Shown: piece after piece, positions 32,939-48,825 of the stretch
How positions within the stretch are numbered: the stretch's first letter is position 1
Layout: every line of letters starts with the position of its first letter
Source: a virus
Taxonomy: Duplodnaviria > Caudoviricetes
DNA length: 64,000 nucleotides
Strand: one strand, 5' to 3'
IMG/VR virus record: IMGVR_UViG_3300021399_000130
Location: 26,592 to 90,591 of that record
The notes under the pieces: generated by a model
The model's database searches: none
What the model was told of the DNA's origin: nothing
Seen by the model: the letters and a program-made list of their open reading frames with translations, nothing else
Position numbers and translations under genes: made by a program

Positions 32939-33052
32939 ATTGTTTCTGTCTAATATATTATTCCGTTAAAATATAGCGTTTTCCTATGATAAAGGAAAGA
33001 TTACGCCTTATAGTATAAATAGTTTAAGGAATGAATAAATAAAAGGAAGCCG

Positions 33053-33283
33053 TTAAAGCTCCCTTTTCTTTTCTCCACCCCAGGTTTCTTCCTTATAGCA
33101 CTCGAAACATCCGCCAATCAAACCGTGCAATAATTGATATGGGGTTGTATAGAATATCCCGTGTTTCTGGCACCTTACTGGAAAAGTTGTTTCATACACC
33201 AGATTATGCTCCGTAACGCCAGAACAATCATACTTGCCACCATAAAGTTTTTCTGCGGCACTGATAAACTCTACCCTGGTCAT
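33053..33283 (-). CDS. Stand-alone zinc-ribbon repeat (DUF723-like) protein
   Basis: EFISAAEKLYGGKYD...C.KHG.F...P..LL.G..GC..C, one copy of the repeat found four times in 49419..50462. Confidence 0.6.
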   Translation of the reverse strand: MTRVEFISAAEKLYGGKYDCSGVTEHNLVYETTFPVRCQKHGIFYTTPYQLLHGLIGGCFECYKEETWGGEKKREL

Positions 33284-33285
33284 AG

Positions 33286-34428: not shown

Positions 34429-34537
34429 ATATAGATTGATTTAAAGTCTTATTTTTGTATAAATAGTTTGTTTATTCCTTTTGAAGTTCTCAATCTTTTT
34501 TGTATTTTTTCATTGAACATTAAAAATAATAAGAATT

Positions 34538-34723
34538 ATGGGTTCTAATGCTTTTTTGTATAAAGGTGACCGTGGCATAATGTATTGCATATGCCCGAAG
34601 TGTGGCGAAACCGTGCTTGTATATCCGGAGGACGTTTCCGGTACGACAATGAACGGCGCAACGGAATATTTCGTACGTTGTGATGATTGCGGAAACTGGT
34701 TTAACACATCAGTTGATTATTAG
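34538..34723 (+). CDS. Small zinc-ribbon protein
   Basis: CICPKCGE...CDDCGNWF. Confidence 0.65.
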   Translation: MGSNAFLYKGDRGIMYCICPKCGETVLVYPEDVSGTTMNGATEYFVRCDDCGNWFNTSVDY

Positions 34724-34725
34724 TT

Positions 34726-34741
34726 TGGCACGGTTTTTGCA
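34726..34741 (+). promoter_or_regulatory. Sigma54-like promoter (perfect consensus)
   Basis: TGGCACGGTTTTTGCA matches TGGCACG-N4-TTGC(A/T), upstream of 34787. Confidence 0.55.
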
Positions 34742-34786
34742 AGATACTTTCAGTAACAAAAATAAACGGCTTAGGATATAGAAGAT

Positions 34787-35050
34787 ATGAAAAGATTAGT
34801 TTGTAAGGAGAACCCGAAGATTTACATCGTTGCACCTGACGAGAACATCTGTGAGGTTGGCGGAAACTGTTGGCAGGTAACCGGTCCGCAGCCAATAACT
34901 TATGCAAAGTGCTTCTGGGACCTGGAGGATATGCCTGACCACGAAAAGAAAATCAAGGAACTGGAGAAGATGGTTAGTGACGCTGGGTGGCAGTATGAGT
35001 ATGACCACGCTGACGACTGGAGGAGACCCACTGAAATGGGGCAGTTATAA
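34787..35050 (+). CDS. Hypothetical protein
   Basis: 87-aa ORF after promoter motif. Confidence 0.65.
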   Translation: MKRLVCKENPKIYIVAPDENICEVGGNCWQVTGPQPITYAKCFWDLEDMPDHEKKIKELEKMVSDAGWQYEYDHADDWRRPTEMGQL

Positions 35051-35071
35051 ATAACATTAAATCAACAAGTT

Positions 35072-35344
35072 ATGACTACCGACAAACAAAAGAGGGCCAT
35101 CGCGTTCTGCAACGAACAGTGTGACGAAAAGTTCACAGGAGACATCGATAATTTCGCCGAGGTATCAAAATATCTATCAACCCATCTCGCACAGGCAAAG
35201 GAACGTGGAAACAGACCCAGGTATAGCGTTACAACGCAAAGATTGCTGGATTATTCCCGTGAGGCGTTTGATGTGTTTGACCACGAATATGATAATGACG
35301 GAACCGATTGGGATTATATCGAGTCCGGATTAAGACCTTTTTAA
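35072..35344 (+). CDS. Hypothetical protein
   Basis: 90-aa ORF in operon. Confidence 0.65.
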   Translation: MTTDKQKRAIAFCNEQCDEKFTGDIDNFAEVSKYLSTHLAQAKERGNRPRYSVTTQRLLDYSREAFDVFDHEYDNDGTDWDYIESGLRPF

Positions 35345-35348
35345 AACT

Positions 35349-36089
35349 ATGTTCAGGCAAAGAAAATATATCGCGCTTCCCGTCGGTTGGAAGGAGAAAT
35401 ACGGCACAGACAAAGAGAGTGATGTGCCGAATTATGTTAAGAAAAACACAAGGGGTGCTTATTTCAGTTGCTATGATATCGTTCCATGCATGTTCAAAAA
35501 CAAGGAGGAGGCGGACCAGTTTGACAAGGAGCACCTCAAGCACTACCTTATAAGACAAAAGTTTGCTGACTGGTGGATGTCGACTGAACCGGAAATGATT
35601 GAGATTGACCCGGATACGCTTGAGGAAGTGAAGCGGGAATATATCTTATGTGCGGCAGTTTGGTATAAGGACGGCACTGAGGCACCCAGAGGACTTATCG
35701 CACAGAACATTGATACTGGGGTTGTTATAGGTCAATGGCGGCACGGGAACTGCATAAACGTCAGGTCGACTAATCCAGTATGGAACGCTAAGAAACTGAC
35801 CGAAAGGAAGCAGGAGGCCCCGATGATAACAAAGTACGAGGACACTCTGGAATATTATGATTATGTTGATGGTTTCCTTACAAGCGAGGGAAACTTCGTT
35901 GATAGGTGGCAGGGAATGAAACTTGCATATGAGGCCGGGCAGGTTAATGAAAAGCGGGCGTTTAGAAGCGAGGAAAGGATTGAGGAAGACGCGATTAGCG
36001 ATAGGGAGCTCATGGAAGGCGAACCCCAGCACAGAAGCGGAAAAATGTGTGGGAGATATAATATGATGTATAGTGAGGATTTATATTAG
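35349..36089 (+). CDS. Hypothetical protein
   Basis: 246 aa; ILCAAVWY...G.RH..C...GFLTSEG.FVDR...A..AGQ motif set. Confidence 0.75.
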   Translation: MFRQRKYIALPVGWKEKYGTDKESDVPNYVKKNTRGAYFSCYDIVPCMFKNKEEADQFDKEHLKHYLIRQKFADWWMSTEPEMIEIDPDTLEEVKREYILCAAVWYKDGTEAPRGLIAQNIDTGVVIGQWRHGNCINVRSTNPVWNAKKLTERKQEAPMITKYEDTLEYYDYVDGFLTSEGNFVDRWQGMKLAYEAGQVNEKRAFRSEERIEEDAISDRELMEGEPQHRSGKMCGRYNMMYSEDLY

Positions 36090-36091
36090 TT

Positions 36092-36964
36092 ATGAAATAT
36101 ATTACACTAAGCGAACTTTCTAAAACAATAAGGGAAAACCTATGGAAAATTCCAAGAGATATTGATTTTATAATAACTATTCCAAGAAGTGGTACTATTG
36201 CTGGGGCTATCATAAGTGAATTTTTAAATGTTCCGATGATAGAAATTGACGCATTTATAAACGGTGTTAAACCAACGGGGGGGGGGCGTATAAGGCATTA
36301 TAATAATATCCATAAAGAGAACACAAACAAAATTCTGGTTGTTGATGATACAGTATATAACGGTACTTCAAAACGCATAGCCGAAGATAAGTTAAAATAT
36401 TTTACAGATTATACATTTGTTTTCATGGCTGTCTATCAAGAGGGACCAAACAGAAACGCTGTTGATTTTTTCTTAGAAGATGTAAGTATGTATACAAATA
36501 ACTTTACTCAATTAGTTTTATATGAGTGGAATATTTTCCATCACAATGAAGACATAATGGAAAGTTGTTTATATGACATGGATGGGGTACTTTGTTTAAA
36601 TCCACCAGATGAAAGGAATGAGGAAGAATATTTAACATTCATACGTAATGCCCCACCTCTTTTTATTCCAACGGTAAAAATAGGTGGAATTGCTACATAT
36701 CGTTTAAATAAAAATAGTAAAATTACAGAAGAATGGCTTAATGAACATAATGTAAAGTACGGCACACTTTTTACTTTTAATGCAAATTCGTGGGAAGAAA
36801 GAAACGCAACTGGTGTGGGTCCGGCAGAATATAAGGCGTTTATTTATTCATCCTCTGAAAAATTCCAGCTTTTTGTAGAAAGTGACAAACAACAAGCCGA
36901 AATAATACATAAAATATCAAAAAAACCAGTATTATGCATTGAAAACAATAGATTATATGCGTAA
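36092..36964 (+). CDS. Phosphoribosyltransferase plus HAD-like fusion protein
   Basis: IPRSGTIAGAIISEFLNVP and ILVVDDTVYNGTS (PRPP loop); C-terminal CLYDMDGVLC (HAD motif I); contains a G10 tract. Confidence 0.7.
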   Translation: MKYITLSELSKTIRENLWKIPRDIDFIITIPRSGTIAGAIISEFLNVPMIEIDAFINGVKPTGGGRIRHYNNIHKENTNKILVVDDTVYNGTSKRIAEDKLKYFTDYTFVFMAVYQEGPNRNAVDFFLEDVSMYTNNFTQLVLYEWNIFHHNEDIMESCLYDMDGVLCLNPPDERNEEEYLTFIRNAPPLFIPTVKIGGIATYRLNKNSKITEEWLNEHNVKYGTLFTFNANSWEERNATGVGPAEYKAFIYSSSEKFQLFVESDKQQAEIIHKISKKPVLCIENNRLYA

Positions 36965-37130
36965 GGTAAAAAGAAAAAGGAAGGAATGTCCGTTAGAATG
37001 CGAATGGTCTCATACTGGCTATTGCCCGGCGTACTATCTACAGAACGACAATGGAGTATTAAAAATGCGACCAAAGAAAAATGCACCTTGTTATAATGAA
37101 ATTAAAGGGGATAAATTTATTAATATATGA
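36957..37130 (+). CDS. Small Cys-rich hypothetical protein
   Basis: ECPLECEWSHTGYCP...PCY; overlaps neighbours by a few nt. Confidence 0.5.
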   Translation: MRKVKRKRKECPLECEWSHTGYCPAYYLQNDNGVLKMRPKKNAPCYNEIKGDKFINI

Positions 37131-37291
37131 TTGATTGGGAACAAGTTAGAGTTGATGCAGCAATCAGCGCGATGCAAGGAGTATTGGAAAGTGGGAAACT
37201 TGGAATGGTACTTGAAGCCACCCCGGAAGTAGTTGCAAAACAATCAGTTAGATTAGCTGATGCGTTGATTAAAGAACTTAAAGGGGAATGA
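37127..37291 (+). CDS. Small hypothetical protein (54 aa, below ORF-track cutoff)
   Basis: Manual translation MIDWEQVRVDAAISAMQG...SVRLADALIKELKGE*; ATGA overlap with the previous gene. Confidence 0.7.
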   Translation: MIDWEQVRVDAAISAMQGVLESGKLGMVLEATPEVVAKQSVRLADALIKELKGE

Positions 37292-37609
37292 TATATGGGA
37301 AAAACAAAGCATAACAAGATTGCATTGAGGGTTCCCAGTGATTGCGTTACGGCCAAGGAAAGAAAGGATTACCAGGACAATGAGAAGCCGAAAAACAAAC
37401 CCGGCAAACTTTTTTATAAGTACGGGGTTAGTAACGTCGGGTGGGAAGACCATGTAGTAGGCCATCAGAGTAATGGTAGGGCTAAGAAATTGTTTAATAG
37501 GATTTTAAGGAAGAAAATTAAACGAGAAACTGGAAAACTTCTTAACGAGGAATAGTTTTGCACGGTTAGATTAGCTGATGTCTTGATTAAAAAACTTAAA
37601 GGAGAATGA
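37247..37609 (+). repeat. 45-bp imperfect direct repeat flanking gene 37295..37555
   Basis: 37247-37291 vs 37565-37609, 41/45 identical by manual alignment. Confidence 0.85.
37295..37555 (+). CDS. Small basic hypothetical protein
   Basis: 86-aa Lys/Arg-rich ORF between the direct repeats. Confidence 0.6.
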   Translation: MGKTKHNKIALRVPSDCVTAKERKDYQDNEKPKNKPGKLFYKYGVSNVGWEDHVVGHQSNGRAKKLFNRILRKKIKRETGKLLNEE

Positions 37610-38247
37610 ATAACGGTTTTATAAGGGAAGAAAACAAGCGGAGACGTTCTGATGAAACGAGGTCCGACCACGCTCACGAGATGCTTGAGAGGGTATTTTA
37701 TGGTCCGAAAACAACCGATTATCACGGAATCTATGACAAGGAAACCCAGGTAAAGGGTGTTGATTCCATCTTTACATATAACGGTAAAGAGTATCATTGC
37801 GATGAAAAGGCCGCCGTCAATTACGTAGCCAAAGGACTCCAGACGTTCTCCCTGGAACTTTCATTCATTGACAGAATGAACAAAACAGTCACGGGATGGC
37901 TCCATAAAGAAGACAACGCGACCGACTCATACTTTTTTATGTGGTTCGATAAAGATGATTATGAAATCGCGCTGGTGGAAAAGTCAAAAATTATTTCTTA
38001 TTTGAACTCATTGGGGTGGAATAAGGATAAATTGCTTAAAAAAGCCAGTTTAATCCGGGAGGGAAACGGGGGCTACCTTGGGGACATTAGGAAAAACGGG
38101 TGCAGATTTTTCTTCTCAAACTATGACTGGATGCCCGAGAGGCCCATAAATGTCCTGGTACCGAGAGAAAAACTGGTTAAAATGGCCGTTTTTGCCAAGA
38201 AATTTAAATATGAAAAGGAAGATAAAATAATTTTTGGATTAAAATAA
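37606..38247 (+). CDS. Hypothetical protein, possibly PD-(D/E)XK nuclease-like
   Basis: QVKGVDSIF...CDEKAA motif is suggestive only. Confidence 0.5.
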   Translation: MNNGFIREENKRRRSDETRSDHAHEMLERVFYGPKTTDYHGIYDKETQVKGVDSIFTYNGKEYHCDEKAAVNYVAKGLQTFSLELSFIDRMNKTVTGWLHKEDNATDSYFFMWFDKDDYEIALVEKSKIISYLNSLGWNKDKLLKKASLIREGNGGYLGDIRKNGCRFFFSNYDWMPERPINVLVPREKLVKMAVFAKKFKYEKEDKIIFGLK

Positions 38248-38320
38248 GTTTGGCACAGTTTTTGTAATAGTATAGTTGTATTTGTTTTTTTGAAATAGTT
38301 TTTGTATACTATTTATAGTA

Positions 38321-38438
38321 GATACAATGATGATGGGTCCGCCAGACAGTCATCGTTAACATAGAAGTGTAACGGGAGAAATTCCGCTTATGGCACCTAT
38401 CTTAATTCTGGCGGGTTTTGATGGGTGCCATTTTTTTT
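38321..38438 (+). ncRNA. Candidate kissing-loop small RNA A
   Basis: Hairpin AATGATGA/TCATCGTT; GAAA-tetraloop hairpin CGGGA/TTCCG; terminator ATGGCACCTATC/GATGGGTGCCAT plus T run; loop CCGCCAGA (38339-46) complementary to loop TCTGGCGG (38407-14). Confidence 0.7.
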
Positions 38439-38466
38439 AAAAGATTTTTTACAAAACCCGCAAGTT

Positions 38467-38482
38467 TGACACGGTTTTTGTA
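38467..38482 (+). promoter_or_regulatory. Promoter motif upstream of the methyltransferase
   Basis: TGACACGGTTTTTGTA, variant of the TGGCACGGTTTTTGCA family. Confidence 0.45.
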
Positions 38483-38515
38483 TAAAGAGTATAGAAACAT
38501 TGAAAAATTAGAATT

Positions 38516-39763
38516 ATGGAAGCACCTACAAAGAAACCCAACATTAAGCTCCCAGAAGGAATGGAGCTCGTATGGAATTCTGTTACCGAAAGATGGGCAA
38601 TGCGTCCGGTTCCGGGTTACTCTACCATTTATCTTGACAAGAATTCCTTTATCCCCAAATCAACCGAAGAAAGGAAAGAAGCAAATAAGGATAAAGGCGC
38701 TGGTAAAACAAAAAATGGAAAACTCCACAAGGCAAAAAGAGACAAAAATGATGAATTTTACACTCGTCTTGAGGATATCACTGATGAGTTGAAACACTAT
38801 GGTAGAGAATTTTTTGAAGGAAAAGTGGTTTATTGCCCATGCGACAAGGCATTCAATCTTGGCCGCAGTAATTTCTTCACTTTCTTTACCTCTCATTTCC
38901 TTGATTGGGGTCTCAAAAAGCTTGTTGCCACCCAATACGTTGAAGGCGGCCGTGGATGGATGTGGGTTATTGAGAAAGGTGACATTAACGGCAACGGCTA
39001 TATTGACGAGAGCGAGATTGACACTTATCAACTTACTGGTAATGGCGATTTCCTGAGTGAAGAATGTCGTAAAATTATGGATGAGAGTGATGTGGTTGTG
39101 ACAAATCCCCCGTTCTCTCTTTTCCGGCCTTTTGTCAATCAGCTTGTTGAGCTGAACAAGAAGTTCCTTATTATTGGTAACCAGAACGCCATTACCTACA
39201 AAGAAATTTTCCCCCTTATAAAGGAAAACAAAGTTTGGCTTGGTTACCACAATAATGCGACCTACATCTTTGAAAGCCCAAACGGAAACATTCTTGAATC
39301 CAACCGGGAATACGTCAAAGCACATGGTTTGGACCCCGATAAGTATATCAAAGTACCAAGTGTTTGCTGGTTTACTAACCTTGAACACAACAAACGAAAA
39401 GAAGACCTATATCTTGGCAATACTTACTTCGGGCATGAAAGTGAATACCCGAAGTATGATAACTATAACGCTATTGAGGTCAGTAAAGTAGCAAACATTC
39501 CGGTTGATTACAATGGCGTAATGGGTGTTCCGATTACTTTTCTTGGTCAATATAACCCGGAACAATTCGAAATTGTCGGATGCGCGGATGCGGATATCCT
39601 CCCTGATGGGTGGTCCGGCATGACTAGTGAATTTGTTGAGCTTTATTACAAACAAGGAAACACTGGTCAATACAAAGAAGGAAACAGACTAACCCATTAT
39701 GTTAGCCCGGAAGGAAAAGCAATAGTTCCTTTTAAGCGAATTCTCATCCGTCGCAAGAAGTAG
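38516..39763 (+). CDS. Adenine-specific DNA methyltransferase, EcoRI-methylase family
   Basis: NDEFYT, KVVYCPCD, GDF.SEEC, DVVVTNPPFSLFR, FLIIGNQNAITYKE, PKYDNY.AIEV, GVMGVPITFL. Confidence 0.9.
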   Translation: MEAPTKKPNIKLPEGMELVWNSVTERWAMRPVPGYSTIYLDKNSFIPKSTEERKEANKDKGAGKTKNGKLHKAKRDKNDEFYTRLEDITDELKHYGREFFEGKVVYCPCDKAFNLGRSNFFTFFTSHFLDWGLKKLVATQYVEGGRGWMWVIEKGDINGNGYIDESEIDTYQLTGNGDFLSEECRKIMDESDVVVTNPPFSLFRPFVNQLVELNKKFLIIGNQNAITYKEIFPLIKENKVWLGYHNNATYIFESPNGNILESNREYVKAHGLDPDKYIKVPSVCWFTNLEHNKRKEDLYLGNTYFGHESEYPKYDNYNAIEVSKVANIPVDYNGVMGVPITFLGQYNPEQFEIVGCADADILPDGWSGMTSEFVELYYKQGNTGQYKEGNRLTHYVSPEGKAIVPFKRILIRRKK

Positions 39764-39773
39764 TCTCATCATT

Positions 39774-39815
39774 GGGTTGCCACCAACGGCAATTGTGGTC
39801 GGCAACCTATTTCTT
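39774..39815 (+). terminator. Intrinsic terminator
   Basis: GGGTTGCC / GGCAACCT stem followed by ATTTCTTT. Confidence 0.65.
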
Positions 39816-39854
39816 TAAGATTTTTTCTTGATTTTTTAGATAGTTTTGCTGGTT

Positions 39855-39870
39855 TGGCATAGTTTTTGCA
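39855..39870 (+). promoter_or_regulatory. Sigma54-like promoter motif
   Basis: TGGCATAGTTTTTGCA upstream of the DUF262-HNH gene. Confidence 0.5.
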
Positions 39871-39906
39871 GTATAACTTACGGTTAATTTTGTAAAATTT
39901 AAGAAT

Positions 39907-41298
39907 ATGGCTAGAAGTAAATTTTATGGCTTTCGCATGGTGCAGCAGGAAAAAAGCGCACTTGTAATCAAAGAATTGAAGAATGTAACGCTCGGCGAAC
40001 TAGCTGAAGGGTATGTTGACAACTCCGAAAATGTTGGTGGAGGTGTGTTTGCTTGGGGTGGAAAACTCATTGTTCGTCCCGAGTTCCAGAGGTCATTCGT
40101 TGTTGACGGAAACTATGAGTGGCAGACAAACCTGATTGACTCCGTTCTGAACCATAAACCAATAGGACTTATGTATTTCGGAATTGAGAGCGAGAAGAAG
40201 GATGTTTATTACAATATTGATGGGCAGCAGAGACTTATGACACTTCTGTCTTTCATTAAAGGTGAGCTCGCTCTTCCTATGATTAAGGATGATGGAACAA
40301 CCGAATCCGTTCTTTTTAATCAGATGCCAGAAGAATGGCAGAGAACCATCAAACAATATACGCCCCTCATTAATGTGTGCATGGGCTCAGAGGAAGAACT
40401 CCTGAAGTGGTTTAGGACTATCAATCAGCCGGTTTGTATCCTTACCGACCAAGAGCTTCGCAATGCGGCCTATAACGGTGTGTGGTGCGAGATTGCTAAA
40501 AGAGCGTTCTCAAAATCCAAAACGACTGAAAAGCCGACCGCAATGAATGGTTTTGTAATGGCCGAAAATAGTCGTTATTACTACGGAAACTATGCCCCCA
40601 AACTTAGCCCGGAAAGGCAGGATGTTCTTGAAATGGCTATTGATTGGATTACGAAATCAGTTTATGGGAGTAGCATCAAAACGATGAAATCGGCTGGCAT
40701 TGACCCAATTGAATGTTACATGGCAGAACATCAGCATGATACAAACGCGGATGAACTTATCAACCACTATAAAAGCGTGGTCGACTGGATTTGGGACGTC
40801 TTCTTCCATGATGGTGCACCGAAAAACTGGCAGTCTGTCCGTTCTCAGGATTGGGGTCGGTTGTACGCCGAATACAAGGATATGCCTCTTACTGAGGAAC
40901 AAAAGATGTATATCAGTAAGCGTACGAAGGAAATCGTTGGTTATGGCGCATCCGTATACCAGAAGACCGACGGCATCTACGAGTGGGTTCTTCGTGGTGA
41001 AAAGAAGGAAGAAGAAAACACCTACCTCCATCTCCGTGGGTTCTCTCCCGAAGATAAGAGTGCCATGTACAATGCCCAGGATGGTTATGACCCGATTGAC
41101 GGACAACATTACGATGTGGCCGATATGCATGCCCATCACATCAAGTCGTGGAGAAGCGGTGGAGATAGCAAGTACGACAATCTCGTCTGGCTCTCCAAAG
41201 AAACGCACAGGAAACTTCATGCCGGAGACCTCGGAATCAGTGGAGAGGAACTCAAGAACTTGCGTGACGAGCTCATCAAACGGAACAAATCCAAATAG
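39907..41298 (+). CDS. DUF262 (GmrSD-like) domain plus C-terminal HNH endonuclease
   Basis: RPEFQRSFV, LIDSVL...PIG.MYF, IDGQQRLMTL, F..INQ....LT.QELRNA; C-terminal AHHIKSW..GG.S..DNL..L....H. Confidence 0.85.
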   Translation: MARSKFYGFRMVQQEKSALVIKELKNVTLGELAEGYVDNSENVGGGVFAWGGKLIVRPEFQRSFVVDGNYEWQTNLIDSVLNHKPIGLMYFGIESEKKDVYYNIDGQQRLMTLLSFIKGELALPMIKDDGTTESVLFNQMPEEWQRTIKQYTPLINVCMGSEEELLKWFRTINQPVCILTDQELRNAAYNGVWCEIAKRAFSKSKTTEKPTAMNGFVMAENSRYYYGNYAPKLSPERQDVLEMAIDWITKSVYGSSIKTMKSAGIDPIECYMAEHQHDTNADELINHYKSVVDWIWDVFFHDGAPKNWQSVRSQDWGRLYAEYKDMPLTEEQKMYISKRTKEIVGYGASVYQKTDGIYEWVLRGEKKEEENTYLHLRGFSPEDKSAMYNAQDGYDPIDGQHYDVADMHAHHIKSWRSGGDSKYDNLVWLSKETHRKLHAGDLGISGEELKNLRDELIKRNKSK

Positions 41299-41317
41299 TT
41301 CCGTCAAGTAATAACGA

Positions 41318-41352
41318 ATAATCCCAGGTTCCGTAAAGGTTCCTGGGATATT
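41318..41352. repeat. Repeated terminator-like hairpin (copy 1; copy 2 at 45578-45612)
   Basis: ATAATCCCAGGTTCCGTAAAGGTTCCTGGGAT vs ATAATCCCAAGTTCCGTAAAGGTTCTTGTGGT. Confidence 0.75.
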
Positions 41353-41355
41353 CTT

Positions 41356-43152
41356 TTATCTTCCGCCAGATGAATAACAGTTCACAAGGCATTTAATCTG
41401 GTCTGAATTATGTCCCGGTATCTTGTCTAACAATGCATCAATGGAAAGTTTCAATGTCGCACCACTGTTCATGTCCTCGTCAAAGATAAGGAAGTTTGAA
41501 TTAGACAGACTGTTGAACAACTCACCGTTCTTGTTGAGGTTTTTGCTTGCCACGACATATACATTGGACAAGAACTTTCTTTCACGTTTATCAAAGTCCG
41601 TTACCTTGAATTTCTTGCTAGCGACGTTCAGTTTTACACCCGTCTCGGTCATCAACTTATCTTCATAGGAAAGGATGAGCCTGTGCATCTCCGACAACGC
41701 GGCTTGATATTCCCTCATGATGGACCTTGAATGAACGATTTCGTTAATCCGTTCTTCAATTTCCGGATTTTTAATCGTTCCGCCACCGAAGTCCTTGTTT
41801 GCCAGTTTGAAGCATATCTGTTTGTAAAGATAATCGGTGTTTTCGGCGCCAAGATTCTGTATGAGCGCATTTGCTGACATCTGGCACAACACGGTCCTGA
41901 TTGCAGAAAGGTCATAATTCACGCCACGACGCTTCCTGATACCGGAGAATTGTTCAGGGTGAGCATTTACAAGTTTCACCATCGGTTCAGCCACAATAAG
42001 TGATATTTCGGCAGCAACTTCACTTTTCACTTTCGTCTTGAATGCGAATATATTGCTCTCCGTCATTCCAGCGTTCCTCATACCTTCTTCATCACATCGC
42101 ACCTCTGTCACGTTCCTCTCATAGAAGTTGTCAATGTATGGTATTCCGAGCTTCCTGGAAAGGTTTGTGCAGTAGTATTTGTTGTATTTTGAGCTGGAAG
42201 GCGGGGCTATAATCACATCCGGTTTATAACCAACTTCTTTCAGTACTCTAGCCGCATATATGATGGACTTGTCAAGGAACTGGGTGAAAGAAGTGTAGTT
42301 TTCGTCCCCAAGGCCATACTGTTTCTTGTAGTGTTCTGTATCCGGAGCCATGGTAGATGCATCAAGTGAGAAATTGTTTGCCACGTCTGGAGTAAGTCCA
42401 TTGTCATATGTTGCTGGTATTCTCTTCAATTGTCCGCGTCCCTTACCATAAAGCTTGTCTTCTCTACTGCGGTCGTTTGATTTTTTAATGCCGAGCAATT
42501 TATCCGTAAGCCCGTTCTGCCTAAATTGACCGTGCTTCGTGACATCGCTGAAATTAAAATCGTTCATTCTATAAAGGGAAATGAACTCAACGTTTGTTTC
42601 TGGGACCGTTCCAACATCGTACCTGAAATCCTTGCCGTTATCAGAAGCGAGGGCGGAAAATCTGTCGACTTTGTTTTGACTTATTTCCTTATCCAGATTA
42701 ATTCTGTCATATGAATTTTTCGCCCAGATAAGCATATCTTCGGCTGTCATTTCGCCCTCGTTAAAATCCCGTATATGTCTCATGAAAGCCGATTTGGACT
42801 GTGCATCTTCTATATCGTTAACAATTGCTGGGTCTATTTTATTGGCGCCAGAATTAAGAATCTCAATGATTTTTAAATAACCGTTCTTTGCTGCCTCCAA
42901 ATTAGCTTGTTTTTGTGCAACCGACTTGCTTCTTTTACCAAGAGTCCCATCTCCGTACAGGACATCATTCTTTGAGCCCCATATCCTTGTGTCGACCTCC
43001 TTATTTGCCTTATCAGTCTGTAGGCTGTTGATTCTCGCGTCTATGGTTCCATTTCCGTTTGACTTGTATGTAATACCCTCCCGAATCAACTTATTCACGG
43101 CCGATTCAATCATATAACGGAGGTCAGATTCTGTTAAAATTACTTTTTTCAT
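41356..43152 (-). CDS. Tagged putative virion protein with C-terminal phosphoribosyltransferase-like domain
   Basis: Leader MKKVILTESDLRYMIESAVNKLIRE|G; DVIIAPPSSS, LSRKLGIP, NFLIFDEDMNSGATL (PRPP loop); late motif at 43163. Confidence 0.7.
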   Translation of the reverse strand: MKKVILTESDLRYMIESAVNKLIREGITYKSNGNGTIDARINSLQTDKANKEVDTRIWGSKNDVLYGDGTLGKRSKSVAQKQANLEAAKNGYLKIIEILNSGANKIDPAIVNDIEDAQSKSAFMRHIRDFNEGEMTAEDMLIWAKNSYDRINLDKEISQNKVDRFSALASDNGKDFRYDVGTVPETNVEFISLYRMNDFNFSDVTKHGQFRQNGLTDKLLGIKKSNDRSREDKLYGKGRGQLKRIPATYDNGLTPDVANNFSLDASTMAPDTEHYKKQYGLGDENYTSFTQFLDKSIIYAARVLKEVGYKPDVIIAPPSSSKYNKYYCTNLSRKLGIPYIDNFYERNVTEVRCDEEGMRNAGMTESNIFAFKTKVKSEVAAEISLIVAEPMVKLVNAHPEQFSGIRKRRGVNYDLSAIRTVLCQMSANALIQNLGAENTDYLYKQICFKLANKDFGGGTIKNPEIEERINEIVHSRSIMREYQAALSEMHRLILSYEDKLMTETGVKLNVASKKFKVTDFDKRERKFLSNVYVVASKNLNKNGELFNSLSNSNFLIFDEDMNSGATLKLSIDALLDKIPGHNSDQIKCLVNCYSSGGR

Positions 43153-43231
43153 AATTCAGTACTATAAATATCTTCCAGAATTTGTTTTTCTGATACAATT
43201 TTTGTATTATACACACATAAACAATAAGATT

Positions 43232-43546
43232 ATGACAGAAGAAAAAGTAAAGAAGCTCATTGAAAGGTGTAAGAGGTCCCTTGAACTATTTGTAGAATCT
43301 GGAAACGAATATGAGTTTGATTCCTACAATATCCTGGTCTCACTAATTGACGATAACTGGGAGTACGGGTACGGGGACTATACCTTCAGATATGAATCAA
43401 CCGATGATTTTTTTAAAAACGCCGAGAACGATATCCTTTCTTACGACGGTTTTGACGATGTTACATCTGTTGCTGTCGACATTGCCTATTTTGACAAGGA
43501 CTACCCGGAAGATGAGGAAAGAGTGGATTTTGATGAGATAAACTAA
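43232..43546 (+). CDS. Acidic hypothetical protein
   Basis: ATG MTEEK within ORF 43202..43546. Confidence 0.65.
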   Translation: MTEEKVKKLIERCKRSLELFVESGNEYEFDSYNILVSLIDDNWEYGYGDYTFRYESTDDFFKNAENDILSYDGFDDVTSVAVDIAYFDKDYPEDEERVDFDEIN

Positions 43547-43591
43547 AATGATAGGTTTGTTTTTTAAAAGTATTTTTGTACTATATATAAG

Positions 43592-43709
43592 GTAGAAATA
43601 TAAATCACCACATATCGTGAAGGGCTATGTGGGAATAAGAGATATAATACGGCAGGAGCAATCTTGTGGCGCCCTTCACTTTAGCTGCGAGATTGTTTCT
43701 GCCTTTTTT
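43592..43709 (+). ncRNA. Candidate kissing-loop small RNA B
   Basis: Hairpin CCACATA/TATGTGG with loop GTGAAGGGC (43617-25); 20-bp terminator stem (43651-70 / 43684-703, five G-U pairs) with loop GCCCTTCAC (43671-79), plus T6. Confidence 0.75.
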
Positions 43710-43733
43710 GTTATAACTGTTAAACAAGCATCT

Positions 43734-44540
43734 ATGTTTAAATCACCATTACGTTATCCTGGCGGTAAAAACAGGTTAGTTAAAATAATAAGCGAGTTAG
43801 CCCCAAAAGACTTCCTTGAATATCGTGAACCATTCCTTGGTGGAGGGAGTGTCTTATTAAAGATGATGGAAGATTATCCCGGGAGAAGATATTGGGCAAA
43901 TGACCTGTATTATGATTTGTTCTGCTTCTGGAATATGGCTCAGAAAAACCCAGAAGAGCTCGTTTCTAAGATAAAGGTAATCAAAGACAGGTGGTCCGGG
44001 GATGGGAAAGGTCTCCATAGATATCTGGTTGATAATATCGCCACGATGTCCCCTATTGATAAAGCGGCTGCGTTCTTTGTGTTGAACAGGATAACATTTT
44101 CCGGGACAAGCTTATCCGGCGGTTTCTCCAAGTCAGCTTTTGAGACCAGGTTTACCGATAGCAGTATAGAAAGACTAATGTCAATGGGACAGGTATTGCA
44201 GGGAAAAGATTTGACTATTACGAATGAGGACTTCTCCTCTGTTTTGACTGGGGGTGATAGCTCAGTTTTCACATTCTTAGACCCGCCGTATTATAGCGCA
44301 ACAGATTCTGCATTATATGGAAAAAATGGTGAATTACACAAAGGATTTGACCACGAGAGACTGGCTGATTCATTAAAAGATTGCAATCACCGTTGGCTTA
44401 TGACTTATGATGACTGCGAATATATTAGAGAACTATATAAAGATTTCAACATCAAGGAGTTTGAACTTATGTATGGGATGCGTAACGTAAGTAAAAACGC
44501 AGACATGAAAGGAAAAGAGGTTTTTATTTTTAACTATTAG
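43734..44540 (+). CDS. D12-class (Dam-family) N6-adenine DNA methyltransferase
   Basis: KSPLRYPGGKNRL, EPFLGGGSV, NDL, FLDPPYY, WLMTYDD; specificity not determinable. Confidence 0.9.
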   Translation: MFKSPLRYPGGKNRLVKIISELAPKDFLEYREPFLGGGSVLLKMMEDYPGRRYWANDLYYDLFCFWNMAQKNPEELVSKIKVIKDRWSGDGKGLHRYLVDNIATMSPIDKAAAFFVLNRITFSGTSLSGGFSKSAFETRFTDSSIERLMSMGQVLQGKDLTITNEDFSSVLTGGDSSVFTFLDPPYYSATDSALYGKNGELHKGFDHERLADSLKDCNHRWLMTYDDCEYIRELYKDFNIKEFELMYGMRNVSKNADMKGKEVFIFNY

Positions 44541-44547
44541 AAAAAAT

Positions 44548-45438
44548 ATGGCAAAAAAGGCATCAAAAAATGAAAAAAATCTTATGAAAATCTTTCCAAA
44601 AGGTCTAGTCTTTTATTATAAAGACCGGTTTTGGAAAGTTATTGACGTAGGTAAACCAAAAACTAATGGCGGTGGTGGAGAACCAAAAACTGATGTATAT
44701 ATTAGGTTTAATGTATACGAAAATGAACATATGCTCAAAAAAAACTTTATTACTCAAATTATTGAAACAAAAATTTCTCTAAAAGCAACCAATGCTGATT
44801 TTGTTGAAAACAAAATGATATATGAACGGGCTAGACAAATTTTTAAAGAAAATACTGATATTGTATTAAAAGAAATACTTGAAAAAATATACGAAGGTGA
44901 TTCCGAGGGTTTTTTAAAAATTATGAAAGCTGGTCGGACAGATAAAAAGCACGGAAACGGCTTATTCTTAGGAATGAGAATAGACTTTATGTCTCAGCCT
45001 AATGGAAAAAAAAGCTGTTCATATCCGTTAACCAGGGAGCAGAAAAGAGAAATTTTTACTGGTTCTACACTTGAAGAGTCTAAGAGAAATGCAATTGTTA
45101 ATGGTGTTATTATTGAGAATTCTGGTGTTGCTAATAAATATTTAAAAATGGATGTACAGGGGAATGAAACGCCACAAGAGATACTTGATAACTTAATATC
45201 ACTAGAAGCGGATTCTCCTTTTTATGATGAAGTTGAACTTTATCCGACACTTAAAGGATGCTATTATTATCCCGATGATGGATATTGTGAAGGAAAAAGA
45301 GCACTTATGATAAGCGTAAATTACTCTTATGATGGTGCAAATAAAACTTTTATTCCAGAAGGGTTAAATTTTGATAGTCCATTAAAATATACAACAAAAG
45401 ATGCTATCCAGAACCTTAAGACGTTAGAAGTTATGTAA
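44548..45438 (+). CDS. Putative cognate type II restriction endonuclease (PD-(D/E)XK)
   Basis: EPKTDVYI...ETKISLKATNADFVENK; 7 nt downstream of the MTase; visibly more AT-rich than the flanks. Confidence 0.6.
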   Translation: MAKKASKNEKNLMKIFPKGLVFYYKDRFWKVIDVGKPKTNGGGGEPKTDVYIRFNVYENEHMLKKNFITQIIETKISLKATNADFVENKMIYERARQIFKENTDIVLKEILEKIYEGDSEGFLKIMKAGRTDKKHGNGLFLGMRIDFMSQPNGKKSCSYPLTREQKREIFTGSTLEESKRNAIVNGVIIENSGVANKYLKMDVQGNETPQEILDNLISLEADSPFYDEVELYPTLKGCYYYPDDGYCEGKRALMISVNYSYDGANKTFIPEGLNFDSPLKYTTKDAIQNLKTLEVM

Positions 45439-45443
45439 AACGT

Positions 45444-45472
45444 AACCCGACCCCTAAAAGGTCGGGTTTTTC
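45444..45472 (+). terminator. Intrinsic terminator
   Basis: AACCCGACC / GGTCGGGTT plus T tract. Confidence 0.8.
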
Positions 45473-45510
45473 TATTTGACTATTTTACAGATAATCACTT
45501 TTTTATATAA

Positions 45511-45613
45511 AACAACAGGTATCCACACCGCCTGCACTGGATATCCTATAAGCAATATGAAGACGGGCACCTATCGTATAATCCCAAGTTCCGTAAAGGT
45601 TCTTGTGGTTTTT
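45511..45613 (+). ncRNA. Candidate small RNA C
   Basis: TTGACT promoter-like sequence at 45476; hairpin AGG-TATCC / GGATA-T-CCT (45518-45547); terminator hairpin 45578-45612. Confidence 0.4.
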
Positions 45614-45642
45614 ATTTATATTGCTACTATTTATAGTATCCT

Positions 45643-45867
45643 ATGACAACAATTCATTTAAATAATAAAGACCTCCACACGATGATAAGAGAGGCGGTTG
45701 AAAGACTCCGTGAAGAACATATGAATCAAAAGAAAATTGAATTGGAACCCAATTACAAATTTGTTCATAAAGCAGTCAAAAAAGCCCTCAGAGAAGCTTT
45801 ATCATCTCAAGCGAATACGAATACATTTGGAACAAGAAAGTCCCGTAAAAACGATTTCTGTGCATAA
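45643..45867 (+). CDS. Small tagged putative head protein
   Basis: MTTIHLNNKDLHTMIREAVERLREE leader; late motif at 45626. Confidence 0.6.
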   Translation: MTTIHLNNKDLHTMIREAVERLREEHMNQKKIELEPNYKFVHKAVKKALREALSSQANTNTFGTRKSRKNDFCA

Positions 45868-45878
45868 GGAGACAAAGT

Positions 45879-47117
45879 ATGATAAGACAAAAGATTACAG
45901 TCGTGGGAATCGGCTATGTCGGACTTGGTGTCGGCATAATGCTTTCAACGAAACACGACGTTACGATGCTTGATATCGACCAGAGAAAGGTCGATATGTT
46001 AAACGAAAGAAAATCCCCCATTAAAGACGAATTGATTGAAAGTTATCTCACTAAAAAAGAAGCTTTGTCATTGTCTGCGACTACCGATAAGGGTGTTGCG
46101 TATGACAGGCCTGATTTTATTGTAATTGCCGTACCCACAAATTATGACGAGGAGACCAGGCAATTTGACACCAGGATACTTGAAAATGTCATAAACGAGG
46201 CTATCGGGGGCAATCAGAACGCGACAATCGTCATTAAATCGACAATTCCGGTCGGTTATACGAAGGGGTTGAGGAAAAGGCTTGAAGAACAAGGTTTCCA
46301 TAATTCTAAAGTCATATTCAGCCCGGAGTTCCTTAGGGAAGGTACCGCACTAAAGGACAACCTCTATCCAAGCAGGGTAATTGCCGGGTGTGATGCCGTT
46401 GACAGGGAACAATTCAGTCTTGCCGGCAGATATCTTGAACTTGTAAGAAGCGTAACGATTGGTGACTATCGGGAGTTAATTATGGGAAGTACGGAGGCCG
46501 AAGCCGTTAAACTCTTTGCAAACACTTATCTTGCGATGCGTGTGGCTTATTTCAACGAACTTGACACTTATGCTGAGCTTAACGGATTGAATGCCAAGGA
46601 TATAATCGAAGGTATGTGCTATGACCCACGAATCGGTAACCAATATAATAATCCGTCATTCGGGTACGGCGGATATTGTTTCCCGAAAGATACGAAACAA
46701 CTTCTTGCTAACTTTGAAGGGGTGCCACAAAACCTCATAGAAGCCATTGTTAAGTCAAACGAAACAAGAAAGGAACATATTGCCAATCGTGTTGGAGCGA
46801 TGGCGTATTCTCAACCAATAAAGTACCCGAAAGGGTTCCCAATTGTCGGCGTATATAGGCTCGCAATGAAGTCCGGTAGTGATAATTTCAGAAAGAGTGC
46901 CATACTTGATGTAATTGAACTGCTTATTAAATGGCAATGTACCGTAAGAATATACGAGCCAACGATAAAAGAGGATGAATTTAACGGATGCAAGGTGGTT
47001 AAAACAATAGAAGAGTTTAAAAATAACTGCAATGTAATTATCACGAACAGATATGACCCTGAACTGGATGACGTGAAGGATAAGGTTTATACAAGGGACG
47101 TATTTAATAATAACTAA
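45879..47117 (+). CDS. ugd: UDP-glucose 6-dehydrogenase
   Basis: GIGYVG, AVPT, KSTIPVG, SPEFLREG, KLFANTYLAMRVAYFNEL, GYGGYCFPKD, SDNFRKS. Confidence 0.93.
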   Translation: MIRQKITVVGIGYVGLGVGIMLSTKHDVTMLDIDQRKVDMLNERKSPIKDELIESYLTKKEALSLSATTDKGVAYDRPDFIVIAVPTNYDEETRQFDTRILENVINEAIGGNQNATIVIKSTIPVGYTKGLRKRLEEQGFHNSKVIFSPEFLREGTALKDNLYPSRVIAGCDAVDREQFSLAGRYLELVRSVTIGDYRELIMGSTEAEAVKLFANTYLAMRVAYFNELDTYAELNGLNAKDIIEGMCYDPRIGNQYNNPSFGYGGYCFPKDTKQLLANFEGVPQNLIEAIVKSNETRKEHIANRVGAMAYSQPIKYPKGFPIVGVYRLAMKSGSDNFRKSAILDVIELLIKWQCTVRIYEPTIKEDEFNGCKVVKTIEEFKNNCNVIITNRYDPELDDVKDKVYTRDVFNNN

Positions 47118-47120
47118 AAT

Positions 47121-47148
47121 AAAACCGGGGACTTAATCCTCGGTTTTT
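47121..47148. terminator. Bidirectional terminator
   Basis: AAAACCG(G)G / CTCGGTTTT stem between convergent genes. Confidence 0.6.
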
Positions 47149-47165
47149 CATTATTTTATCAAAAT

Positions 47166-48542: not shown

Positions 48543-48825
48543 CAGATAAACAAATAGTTACAATATATATTTAAACTATTCATAAAGGTTTTTTATCCTT
48601 TATCCTATTCTTTTCAGAATAGCTGGCGTACATTTTCATCCTATTAAGGATGTCCCGTACTCTTGGGGGGATTATATTTATTCACCCTCTACGCTCTACG
48701 GTGTTTCAGAGCCTTTCGCAATCTCTGAACTTACCTCGGTATTGCCTTGTCTTTACGATTTAGGTTTCACCGATTTTACGGGATTTCATAATTGCAACTT
48801 ACGCTGCAAGTCGGCAGTGTTGTTT
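48543..48825 (-). ncRNA. ORF-less group I self-splicing intron (283 nt) in terL
   Basis: P1 exon GUCGGU pairs with IGS GCCGAC (U-G at splice site); P10 AACACU with exon 2 GGUGUU; P3 CCCGUA/UACGGG; P4 AUCGGUG/UACCGAG; P7 G(A)GCGUA/UACGCC; terminal G. Splicing restores SRGVG|GVTWLIFDE. Confidence 0.9.

What the first reader, a model, noticed from the sequence alone, without database searches (positions are those of the whole stretch)
38281..43709. A two-member family of kissing-loop small RNAs, each upstream of a DNA methyltransferase-nuclease cassette
Elements A (38321-38438) and B (43592-43709) share no obvious sequence in their bodies but share four things. (1) A near-identical upstream block: TTTGTTTTTTTGAAATAGTTTTTGTATACTATTTATAGTAGA vs TTTGTTTTTTAAAAGTATTTTTGTACTATATATAAGGTAGA, combining a host-like TTTG...TTTTTG promoter with the late motif. 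(2) About the same length, 115 nt. (3) The same topology: 5' hairpin, A-rich linker, long terminator hairpin plus U-tract, with the two loops perfectly complementary (8 bp in A, 9 bp in B). (4) The same context: the next gene is an N6-adenine MTase followed by a nuclease. Conserved architecture without conserved sequence points to selection on RNA structure. Inference: an undescribed RNA device coupled to phage-borne restriction-modification. It could be an attenuator in which loop pairing controls terminator folding (possibly SAM- or protein-responsive), an RNA antitoxin holding the nuclease in check, or a decoy RNA against host defence.
Basis: partly seen in the sequence, partly recalled or inferred. 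Interest (0 to 1): 0.88.

Follow-up and report, generated by a model that had tools for sequence, protein, structure and literature searches.

The report
Kissing-loop terminator leaders before phage restriction-modification genes
Two ~115-base folded leader RNAs in this large rumen-type phage each end in a transcription-stop hairpin whose tip pairs with the tip of an earlier hairpin, and each sits in front of a swappable restriction-modification cassette; they look like an undescribed kind of transcription gate that is also present in other Bacteroidota phages and is not specific to methyltransferases.

Summary
A (38318-38438) and B (43592-43709) are promoter-to-terminator units with a 5' hairpin loop perfectly complementary to the terminator loop: 8 bp in A, 9 bp in B. 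My detector finds only these two in the 90.6-kb record, against 0.15 expected.

New homologues support an RNA fold. A' (L135) keeps both loops, with one C:G to G:C swap inside the kissing helix. Its stem arms are only about 30% identical to A yet still pair (12 double compensatory changes).

Each leader heads a restriction-modification cassette. A-type leaders precede three unrelated systems, so an RNA tuned to one methyltransferase or nuclease is unlikely, and A and B share no candidate ligand pocket. The cassettes are insertions relative to close relatives, with shared border terminators as in PeSL-type shuffling. Methyltransferases in more distant relatives lack the leader.

The same architecture occurs in Flavobacterium phages 11b and FCL-2, in FCL-2 before a non-R-M gene. 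Earlier notes of this scan had reported this class on other phage DNA.

Best reading (about 0.55): a promoter-proximal attenuator whose kissing loops control or stabilise the terminator. No Rfam family or paper describing it was found. There is no transcript evidence.

The parts
38251..38279 (+). Promoter-like motif TTTGGCAC-N-TTTTTGTA..AGTATAG (sigma-54-like spacing). It is the last stretch shared with relatives L114 and L213 before the A unit.
38281..38322 (+). Promoter block of A: TTTG...TTTTTGTA fused to the late motif CTATTTATAGTAGA. Promoter function is inferred, not shown.
38326..38357 (+). A hairpin 1: arms 38326-38334 and 38349-38357, 14-nt loop 38335-38348 carrying CCGCCAGA (38339-38346).
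38373..38386 (+). A middle hairpin CGGGA-GAAA-UUCCG, kept in A' with a different loop.
38390..38438 (+). A terminator: 12-bp stem (38390-38401 with 38420-38431), 18-nt loop carrying TCTGGCGG (38407-38414), then a run of T to 38438.
38467..38497 (+). Second copy of the TTTGACAC..TTTTTGTA..AGTATAG promoter-like motif, lying between the A terminator and the methyltransferase. Present only in this genome's version of the A locus.
38516..39763 (+). EcoRI-type N6-adenine DNA methyltransferase.
   Evidence: PF13651, 1.6e-111; MTase_II, 6.7e-105
39907..41298 (+). GmrSD_N (DUF262) + HNH nuclease, matching a PADLOC type II restriction enzyme model.
   Evidence: (REase_II, 4.2e-51)
41320..41350 (.). Hairpin terminator at the 3' border of cassette A. 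A near-copy lies at 45581-45612, and it is also kept in L115, L135 and L213.
43557..43597 (+). Promoter block of B: TTTG...TATTTTTGTA fused to CTATATATAAGGTAGA.
43608..43632 (+). B hairpin 1: 7-bp stem, 11-nt loop carrying GTGAAGGGC (43617-43625).
43651..43709 (+). B terminator: 20-bp stem with five G-U pairs (43651-43670 with 43684-43703), 13-nt loop starting with GCCCTTCAC (43671-43679), T run 43704-43709. The start codon lies 25 nt later.
43734..44540 (+). Dam-family (D12) N6-adenine DNA methyltransferase.
44548..45438 (+). 296-aa ORF matching a PADLOC type II restriction enzyme model. No Pfam, PHROG, NCBIfam or PDB sequence match.
   Evidence: REase_II, 1.9e-30
45444..45625 (+). 3' border of cassette B: a terminator (45444-45468), a conserved ~105-nt segment (45469-45573) that recurs after R-M genes in L213, L114 and L135, and a copy of the border hairpin (45581-45612).

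Best explanation
A and B are promoter-proximal leader RNAs of accessory restriction-modification operons in a T4-like jumbo phage of a Bacteroidota-type host.

How it is proposed to work:
- Transcription starts at the late-type motif (CTATTTAT..GTAGA).
- It produces a 5' hairpin, an A-rich linker, and then an intrinsic terminator with an unusually large loop.
- The two hairpin loops pair (8-9 Watson-Crick pairs, about -17 kcal/mol) into an intramolecular kissing complex.
- The unit acts as a transcription gate (attenuator). Most transcripts stop at the T run and give a ~115-nt RNA. Only read-through reaches the methyltransferase and nuclease genes.
- The loop-loop helix is the element that sets, or is targeted to change, how well the terminator works.

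The leaders belong to the phage's regulatory and border repertoire rather than to any one R-M system. They are members of a wider, undescribed class of kissing-loop terminator leaders in Bacteroidota phages.

Shown here: the structure, its covariation, its position, and the cassette exchange.
Inferred: promoter use, termination, and the gating role of the kissing helix.
For: Structure and non-randomness:
- Strong strand-specific folds.
- Only two detector hits in 90.6 kb against 0.15 expected.

Covariation, A versus A' (L135:18237-18118, minus strand):
- Loops are 26/32 identical, stem arms only 13/42 identical.
- 16 of 20 changed pairs stay paired and 12 changed on both sides; binomial P 1.3e-4.
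- The counting tool gives 98.5% of cells paired, 7 pairs with changes on both sides, and 0 of 500 shuffles as high. Versions with the 3' partner slid by 1-3 columns give 35-47% paired.
- The single difference inside the kissing helix is compensated (C:G to G:C).
- Minor variants keep pairing: G to A in L213 turns U-G into U-A, and 43703 C to T turns G-C into G-U.

Leader position:
- The start codon of the first R-M gene follows the T run by 9 nt (L213), 25 nt (A') and 25 nt (B), with no recognisable promoter between.

Generic rather than protein-specific role:
- The A-type leader heads three unrelated R-M systems.
- The one cassette at this site without a leader (L114) shows only weak methyltransferase matches and no nuclease match.

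Orthogonality:
- Own loop pairs give -16.7 and -17.3 kcal/mol. A-with-B cross pairs give -7.5 and -4.2 kcal/mol.

Wider class (promoter, hairpin, large-loop terminator with complementary loops, ATG 10-12 nt later):
- Flavobacterium phage 11b, 33633-33723, 8 bp.
- Flavobacterium phage FCL-2, 37474-37584, 7 bp, ahead of a Phg_2220_C gene.
- Unchecked notes of this scan report the same design in other phages.

Precedent:
- A loop-loop helix that steers an expression platform is known from the corrinoid riboswitch L5-L13 pairing (PMC10327014).
Against: - There is no transcript data.
- I found no conserved alternative (antiterminator) pairing, so what would open the gate is unknown.
- In this window A is followed by a long T run and then a separate promoter-like motif before the methyltransferase. 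Here A could therefore be a free-standing small RNA.
- Only three sequence types exist in this lineage (A, A', B). B has no diverged homologue, so its pairing rests on one sequence plus two point variants.
- Covariation in the kissing helix rests on a single pair.
- A 9-bp helix in B's 11-nt loop would require the top of hairpin 1 to open.
Confidence: 0.55

Rival explanations
1. Free-standing trans-acting small RNAs. The terminated ~115-nt RNAs are the functional product. Their exposed, conserved loops pair with other phage or host transcripts, and the position before R-M genes is secondary.
For: - In the window, A ends in a run of eight T and a separate promoter-like motif precedes the methyltransferase.
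- The loops are the most conserved part of A/A'.
- The 12-nt terminator-loop sequence TCTGGCGGGTTT has one further perfect match in the 90.6-kb record. It lies on the minus strand, inside ORF 20158-21105 at 20478-20489.
- Terminated leader RNAs can become regulators, as with StxS (PMC7547250).
Against: - In three of four contexts the terminator abuts the start codon of the R-M operon with no other promoter.
- If the two loops pair with each other they are largely occupied.
- The 12-mer match has roughly a 4% chance expectation given the four 12-mers I tested. It could not be checked in the A' phage, whose record lacks that gene. ORF 20158-21105 has no family match.
Confidence: 0.15
2. Mainly DNA-level cassette borders, as with PeSLs. 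The conserved promoter/hairpin/terminator block serves as the homology patch for modular exchange of accessory genes. Its RNA only insulates transcription, and the loop complementarity has no separate role.
For: - Both cassettes are insertions relative to close relatives. L114 lacks 43540-45625 and L115 lacks 38243-41308.
- Window and L213 share the A leader at 94.6% identity and diverge immediately after the T run.
- Border hairpins and a ~105-nt 3' segment recur around different cargo.
- This matches PeSL-mediated shuffling in T4-type phages (PMC2839356, PMC4122927).
Against: - It does not explain why the stems of A and A' have diverged to near-random identity while pairing is kept. That pattern is poor for a homology patch.
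- It does not explain the G-U pairs and the marked strand asymmetry of folding.
- It does not explain the recurrence of loop-loop complementarity with unrelated sequences in B, 11b and FCL-2.
- A PeSL is a terminator followed by a promoter; here the order is promoter then terminator.
- This reading is compatible with the best explanation rather than exclusive of it.
Confidence: 0.15
3. One reading: a SAM/SAH-sensing riboswitch, an RNA antitoxin that holds the nuclease in check, or a decoy against host defence.
For: - All four leader contexts in this lineage carry a methyltransferase plus a known or candidate nuclease.
- The leaderless L114 cassette shows no nuclease match.
- In phage 11b the unit headed by the leader ends with a methylase.
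Against: - The same A leader serves three unrelated methyltransferase and nuclease families.
- A and B share no conserved unpaired nucleotides that could form a common pocket.
- No known riboswitch model matches even at E up to 10.
- Methyltransferases elsewhere lack the element.
- FCL-2 has the design ahead of a Phg_2220_C gene.
Confidence: 0.06
4. Phase-variable terminator (inverton). The 8-9-bp inverted repeats in the two loops are recombination sites. Inverting the ~60 bp between them would swap hairpin arms, destroy both hairpins and switch the operon on.
For: - Geometrically, inversion would abolish both stems.
- Inverted repeats also covary at the DNA level, so the C:G to G:C swap does not exclude this.
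- Invertible switches are common in Bacteroidota (general knowledge).
Against: - The repeats are very short.
- No recombinase gene lies nearby.
- All independent assemblies carry the same orientation: L119-L122, L213, L218-L226.
- The possible G-U extension of the A helix, and the G-U-rich B stem, point to RNA-level selection.
Confidence: 0.03

Closest known systems
Lambdoid late unit PR' - 6S RNA/StxS - tR', released by antiterminator Q (PMC7547250)
   Same: - A phage promoter is followed at once by an intrinsic terminator.
- It produces a short leader RNA.
- Downstream genes are expressed only by read-through.
- The short RNA can gain a function of its own.
   Different: - No Q-like factor or Q-binding site is known here.
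- The lambdoid leader has no loop-loop pairing between a 5' hairpin and the terminator loop.
- The host and promoter type are Bacteroidota/T4-like, and the cargo is accessory R-M cassettes.
Corrinoid riboswitch L5-L13 kissing loop (PMC10327014)
   Same: - An intramolecular loop-loop helix between an upstream hairpin and a hairpin of the expression platform decides whether a terminator forms.
- Its role was proven by disrupting mutations and compensatory rescue.
   Different: - There the helix is 3-5 bp, depends on a ligand-bound aptamer, and P13 is separate from the terminator.
- Here the helix is 8-9 bp, there is no aptamer-like conserved core, and the partner loop is the loop of the terminator itself.
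- No Rfam cobalamin match.
PeSL (promoter-early stem-loop) cassettes of T4-type phages (PMC2839356, PMC4122927)
   Same: - Composite promoter/terminator motifs flank accessory genes in hyperplastic regions of T4-like genomes.
- They mark the points where cassettes are gained, lost and swapped.
   Different: - A PeSL is a stem-loop followed by a sigma-70 early promoter, repeated nearly identically many times per genome.
- Here the order is promoter then two hairpins, the stems are not conserved in sequence, and the loops are complementary.
Antisense immunity RNAs made from the transcript they control
   Same: - Complementary segments lie within one leader transcript.
- Specificity is set by short sequences that covary between related phages.
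- Control acts on downstream transcription.
   Different: Those RNAs are processed and act on sites covering ribosome-binding or downstream leader regions. They do not act on the loop of an adjacent intrinsic terminator.
phi29 pRNA
   Same: A ~120-nt phage RNA with two complementary loops whose sequences vary between relatives while the complementarity is kept.
   Different: The pRNA loops pair between molecules to form a ring on the packaging motor. pRNA has no terminator-leader position and only a 4-bp loop helix, and is found in a different phage group.

Membership tests
Any Rfam 15 family (including SAM, SAH and cobalamin riboswitches and small ribozymes) | Covariance-model match at or near the family's gathering score | tested here: not met
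   No match at gathering thresholds over the whole window. Local searches at E up to 10 gave only noise, at least 30 bits below threshold.
tRNA / tmRNA | ARAGORN detection | tested here: not met
   0 genes in the window.
PeSL cassettes of T4-type phages | Located at the borders of accessory-gene indels in hyperplastic regions | tested here: met
   Cassette A is absent from L115. Cassette B is absent from L114. Different cargo follows the same leader in L213.
PeSL cassettes of T4-type phages | Order is stem-loop terminator then sigma-70-type early promoter, repeated with near-identical sequence many times per genome | tested here: not met
   The order here is promoter then hairpins. There are only two copies in 90.6 kb and their bodies are unrelated. 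The stems of A and A' are about 30% identical.
Riboswitch (ligand-sensing leader) | Conserved aptamer core shared by members | tested here: not met
   A and B share no conserved unpaired nucleotides. Only complementarity is shared.
Riboswitch (ligand-sensing leader) | Mutually exclusive terminator and antiterminator pairings | tested here: inconclusive
   Inspection of A, A' and B found no alternative pairing conserved in all three. No pseudoknot-aware or co-transcriptional folding was available.
Lambda-type promoter-proximal terminator gate (PR'-tR'/Q) | Promoter followed within ~200 nt by an intrinsic terminator, with operon genes directly downstream | tested here: met
   Late-type motif, ~115-nt leader, canonical hairpin plus T run, and an ATG 9-25 nt later in L213, A' and B. 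The promoter is inferred from motif recurrence only.
Lambda-type promoter-proximal terminator gate (PR'-tR'/Q) | A dedicated antiterminator protein that loads near the promoter | not tested
   The record holds only about 25% of the genome, and no search for Q, N or NusG-like genes was made.
Kissing-loop terminator leaders of Bacteroidota phages (class reported in earlier notes of this scan; not published as far as I could find) | Promoter, 5' hairpin, linker, terminator hairpin with a large loop, loops complementary over at least 7 nt, start codon close behind | tested here: met
   A, B, A' and the L213 variant. The same features were verified by me in Flavobacterium phages 11b and FCL-2.
Kissing-loop terminator leaders of Bacteroidota phages (class reported in earlier notes of this scan; not published as far as I could find) | Loop-loop pairing kept by compensatory change among homologues | tested here: met
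   One C:G to G:C swap between A and A', with the other seven pairs invariant. This is a single event, so the support is modest.
Type III toxin-antitoxin style RNA antitoxin | RNA specific for its cognate protein toxin, usually as tandem repeats processed by the toxin | tested here: not met
   There are no repeats. The same A leader precedes three unrelated nucleases.

The most novel reading that the evidence does not exclude
The leaders are self-addressed, orthogonal RNA gates. The terminated leader RNA accumulates with phage genome copy number and acts back, in trans, on nascent copies of its own leader through the same loop-loop code. Alternatively the loop helix is the docking site of an unknown phage antiterminator. 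Either way each toxic R-M cassette would get a private, dose-sensing switch. The loop code would be free to diversify (A, A', B), giving a programmable addressing system spread through Bacteroidota phages.
Probability: 0.12. Interest if true: 0.85.

Novelty: new variant of a known kind. Interest (0 to 1): 0.6.

Why it matters
If the gating role holds, this is an uncatalogued RNA architecture: a terminator whose own loop is held by an upstream hairpin. Bacteroidota phages would use it to control operons, here the expression of potentially self-damaging restriction-modification cargo in a hyperplastic region of a jumbo phage.

It would add a new regulatory part type with a naturally orthogonal 8-9-nt 'address'.

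It would also help explain how T4-like phages can swap toxic cassettes safely.

It gives a concrete, easily mutated target (loop mutant plus compensatory rescue) for studying intrinsic termination in Bacteroidota, where transcription control is poorly known.

Tried and rejected
- tRNA/tmRNA and Rfam searches: nothing.
- Nucleotide search of the phage collection with 38000-44000: no match.
- Exact promoter-block pattern in IMG/VR: three chance hits in coding or unrelated DNA.
- A-loop pattern:
  - IMG/VR returned only A'.
  - Metagenomes returned the L213 variant, a duplicate of A', and three high-GC chance hits.
  - GTDB genomes returned none.
- B-loop patterns: only high-GC genomes (mostly Streptomyces) in GTDB, which I did not inspect and took as chance, and nothing in IMG/VR.
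- A 14-nt match to the A' loop in L042, L044, L046 and L055 lies in coding sequence that reads like a C5-methyltransferase gene (by eye, no profile run), so I treated it as chance.
- Relaxed detector on 1.06 Mb of relatives: 28 hits, and those that passed the folding-energy filter looked like coding-region noise. That run did not list A' although its hairpins are found, so the relaxed scan is not exhaustive. The strict scan did find A'.
- Whole near-complete relatives G003 and G009 (653 kb): two chance-level hits.
- Leader-peptide idea: A's hairpin 1 contains a 10-codon ORF (MMMGPPDSHR), but B and A' have nothing comparable, so I dropped it.
- Upstream duplicate of the terminator 3' arm as an antiterminator (GAUGGGU in A): not kept in A' or B, so I dropped it.
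- ORF308 of L135: no family match. Its homologues are unnamed. Only a neighbouring C5 methylase in one bacterial genome hints at a restriction enzyme.
- The MAFFT alignments of A and A' misplace one gap. Hairpin 1 and the middle hairpin were therefore scored on a manual alignment checked against the real sequences.

Full report
**Where the window lies.** The window is bases 26592-90591 of a 90.6-kb IMG/VR virus record estimated at 25% complete. The phage is T4-like: Portal_T4, a faint gp13-like hit and a T4_Y16D domain appear in the gene tables, and portal, major head and terminase-like genes are present. Relatives have genomes of 300-390 kb. An 8-mer, CTATTTAT, recurs about 20-30 nt upstream of many genes, including structural ones. 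That is an inference from recurrence only.

**The observation.**
- The quoted upstream blocks, lengths and hairpins are all present.
- The + strand of A folds at -41.6 kcal/mol (z -4.1) and of B at -43.8 kcal/mol (z -5.1). The opposite strands fold at -28.6 and -25.0 kcal/mol (z -2.2 and -1.4). B's 20-bp terminator stem contains five G-U pairs.
- Loop complementarity is exact: CCGCCAGA/TCTGGCGG in A and GTGAAGGGC/GCCCTTCAC in B.
- A detector I wrote looks for a hairpin, then a terminator hairpin with a T run, then loop-loop complementarity of at least 8 nt with at least 4 G/C. It finds only A and B on both strands of the whole record. Twenty Markov shuffles averaged 0.15 hits.
- The loop duplexes are worth -16.7 and -17.3 kcal/mol. 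A-with-B cross pairs are worth only -7.5 and -4.2 kcal/mol.
- 'Near-identical upstream block' is overstated. Identity is about 70-75%, and both halves are common motifs. Their fusion followed by GTAGA does occur only at A and B.

**What follows the RNAs.**
- A is followed by a second promoter-like motif, an EcoRI-type methyltransferase, and a GmrSD_N+HNH protein that matches a PADLOC type II restriction enzyme model at 4.2e-51.
- B is followed, 25 nt after its T run, by a Dam-family methyltransferase and a 296-aa ORF that matches another PADLOC type II restriction enzyme model at 1.9e-30.
- Both are therefore complete type II R-M pairs.

**The cassettes are mobile.**
- L114 (97% identity in the 598-aa neighbouring protein) lacks 43540-45625 altogether. 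At the A site it carries a different cassette without any leader, with weak methyltransferase matches only.
- L115 lacks 38243-41308.
- A hairpin terminator (41320-41350) has a near-copy at 45581-45612. A ~105-nt segment (45469-45573) recurs after R-M genes in L213, L114 and L135.
- This is the pattern described for PeSL-mediated modular shuffling in T4-type phages (PMC2839356, PMC4122927). The motif order here is different, however.

**Homologues and covariation.**
- Near-identical strains carry identical A and B. Two B variants change an unpaired base (43650) and turn a G-C pair into G-U (43703).
- My detector, run on 77 loci (1.06 Mb) around a conserved terminase-like gene of relatives, found one new member, A', at L135:18237-18118 on the minus strand.
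- A pattern built from the two A loops then found a further A variant in a metagenome contig, L213.
- On a manual structural alignment verified against the real sequences, A and A' are 26/32 identical in the two loops but only 13/42 in the four stem arms and 3/15 in the linker.
- Even so, 16 of 20 changed pairs remain paired and 12 changed on both sides (binomial P 1.3e-4).
- The only difference inside the 8-bp kissing helix is a C:G to G:C swap.
- The counting tool, applied to the columns that MAFFT aligned correctly, gives 98.5% of cells paired, 7 pairs with changes on both sides, and 0 of 500 shuffles as high. Versions slid by 1-3 columns give 35-47% paired.
- This is good evidence for an RNA fold. 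For the kissing helix it is modest evidence, because it is one event.

**Association with R-M.**
- A' is followed 25 nt after its T run by an N6_N4 methyltransferase and a 308-aa ORF. A homologue of that ORF sits beside a C5 methylase in a bacterial genome.
- The L213 copy of A is followed 9 nt after its T run by a 1461-aa type IIG restriction-methylation enzyme and a second methyltransferase.
- So four leader contexts carry four different R-M systems, and the A type serves three of them.
- That is hard to reconcile with an RNA matched to a particular methyltransferase or nuclease (antitoxin, pull-down partner).
- A and B share no conserved unpaired nucleotides, which argues against a common SAM/SAH pocket.
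- Conversely, methyltransferases in general do not have such a leader. None was found upstream of the methyltransferase in 112 loci from other phages, nor before the 20 best D12/N6_N4 methyltransferase places in 36 relatives. None was found anywhere in two near-complete relatives (653 kb).

**A wider class.**
- Notes from this scan (unchecked AI notes) report 'kissing-loop terminator leaders' in Flavobacterium and freshwater Bacteroidota phages, ahead of replication, late and methyltransferase operons.
- I tested the claim on two published genomes.
  - Flavobacterium phage 11b has one at 33633-33723: a Bacteroidota-type promoter, a hairpin with loop CGGGCAGG, an A-rich linker, a terminator whose 23-nt loop holds CCTGCCCG, and an ATG 10 nt later.
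  - Phage FCL-2 has one at 37474-37584 (CATCCAC/GTGGATG, ATG 12 nt later), ahead of a Phg_2220_C gene.
- The architecture is therefore neither confined to this phage nor to R-M genes.
- I found no Rfam model and no paper describing it.

**Mechanism.**
- In three of four contexts the only recognisable promoter for the R-M operon lies upstream of the leader, and the terminator abuts the start codon. Operon expression must therefore pass the terminator. That makes the unit a promoter-proximal gate, functionally like lambda PR'-tR' (PMC7547250).
- The terminators are canonical apart from their large loops (13-18 nt here, against 5-7 nt for the other terminators found in the 30000-49000 scan). The large loops exist to carry the complement of the 5' hairpin loop.
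- During transcription the terminator loop emerges before the 3' arm. A pre-formed hairpin 1 can therefore capture it first.
- Whether this helps or hinders hairpin completion, or offers a docking surface for a factor, cannot be decided from sequence.
- The corrinoid riboswitch shows that a loop-loop helix can steer a terminator decision (PMC10327014).
- I commit to 'kissing-loop attenuator' at about 0.55. Free-standing small RNA and border module are the main alternatives. The last is compatible with the first.

**Limits.**
- There are no expression data.
- Few independent sequences are available.
- No pseudoknot-aware folding was available.
- My relaxed detector is not exhaustive.

Noticed in passing
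window 38252-38267, 38468-38483, 39862-39877 (also about 4050; L114 11503-11480; L213 1103-1120 and 8085-8100): A compact motif TTTGGCAC/TTTGACAC-N5-TTG(T/C)A recurs in front of accessory genes. Its GG-N10-G(C/T) spacing matches the sigma-54 -24/-12 consensus, and the copy before the nuclease gene reads TGGCAT-N5-TTGCA. It could be a sigma-54-type or a phage-specific promoter class.
   Followed up: no
window 20478-20489 (inside ORF 20158-21105): AAACCCGCCAGA on the + strand is a perfect 12-nt complement of the terminator-loop sequence of element A, and is the only other perfect copy in the 90.6-kb record. Chance expectation is about 4% for the four 12-mers tested. The ORF has no Pfam or PHROG match.
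   Followed up: partly
window 45469-45573; L213 6630-6740; L114 9483-9621 (minus strand); L135 16194-16354 (minus strand): A ~105-nt highly conserved non-coding segment follows the terminator of different R-M cassettes. In L213 and L114 it precedes a 421/422-aa gene of unknown function that is missing from the window. It is probably that gene's promoter and leader, retained as a cassette border.
   Followed up: partly
window 27176-27290: Another late-motif-driven, G+C-rich structured stretch: a branched hairpin and then a terminator-like hairpin AGGGGG..CCCCCU followed by UUUCUCU, about 60 nt before the next ATG. The fold z-score is only -1.4 and I saw no clean loop-loop complementarity.
   Followed up: partly
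window 34400-48500 versus L114, L115, L135, L213: The whole stretch between the T4_Y16D-like gene and the terminase-like gene is a hyperplastic region. Close relatives (84-97% protein identity) differ by many whole-gene indels, including the 598-aa gene 41356-43152.
   Followed up: partly
L114 8196-11453 (minus strand): At the A site this relative carries a cassette of a 420-aa NPPY-motif ORF, a 185-aa ORF (both with weak methyltransferase matches) and a 421-aa unknown. It has no kissing-loop leader and no detectable nuclease.
   Followed up: partly
L310 (Flavobacterium phage 11b, AJ842011) 33633-33723; L311 (phage FCL-2, KM873719) 37474-37584: Both published genomes contain an unannotated promoter / hairpin / large-loop terminator leader with 8-nt and 7-nt loop-loop complementarity directly before a start codon.
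   Followed up: partly
window 38328-38360: Hairpin 1 of A contains a 10-codon ORF (ATG ATG ATG ... TAA). No counterpart exists in A' or B.
   Followed up: yes
window 45879-47117 and 36092-36964, 41356-43152: A UDP-glucose/GDP-mannose dehydrogenase gene and two ORFs with weak phosphoribosyltransferase matches flank the R-M cassettes. They may relate to DNA or nucleotide-sugar modification.
   Followed up: no
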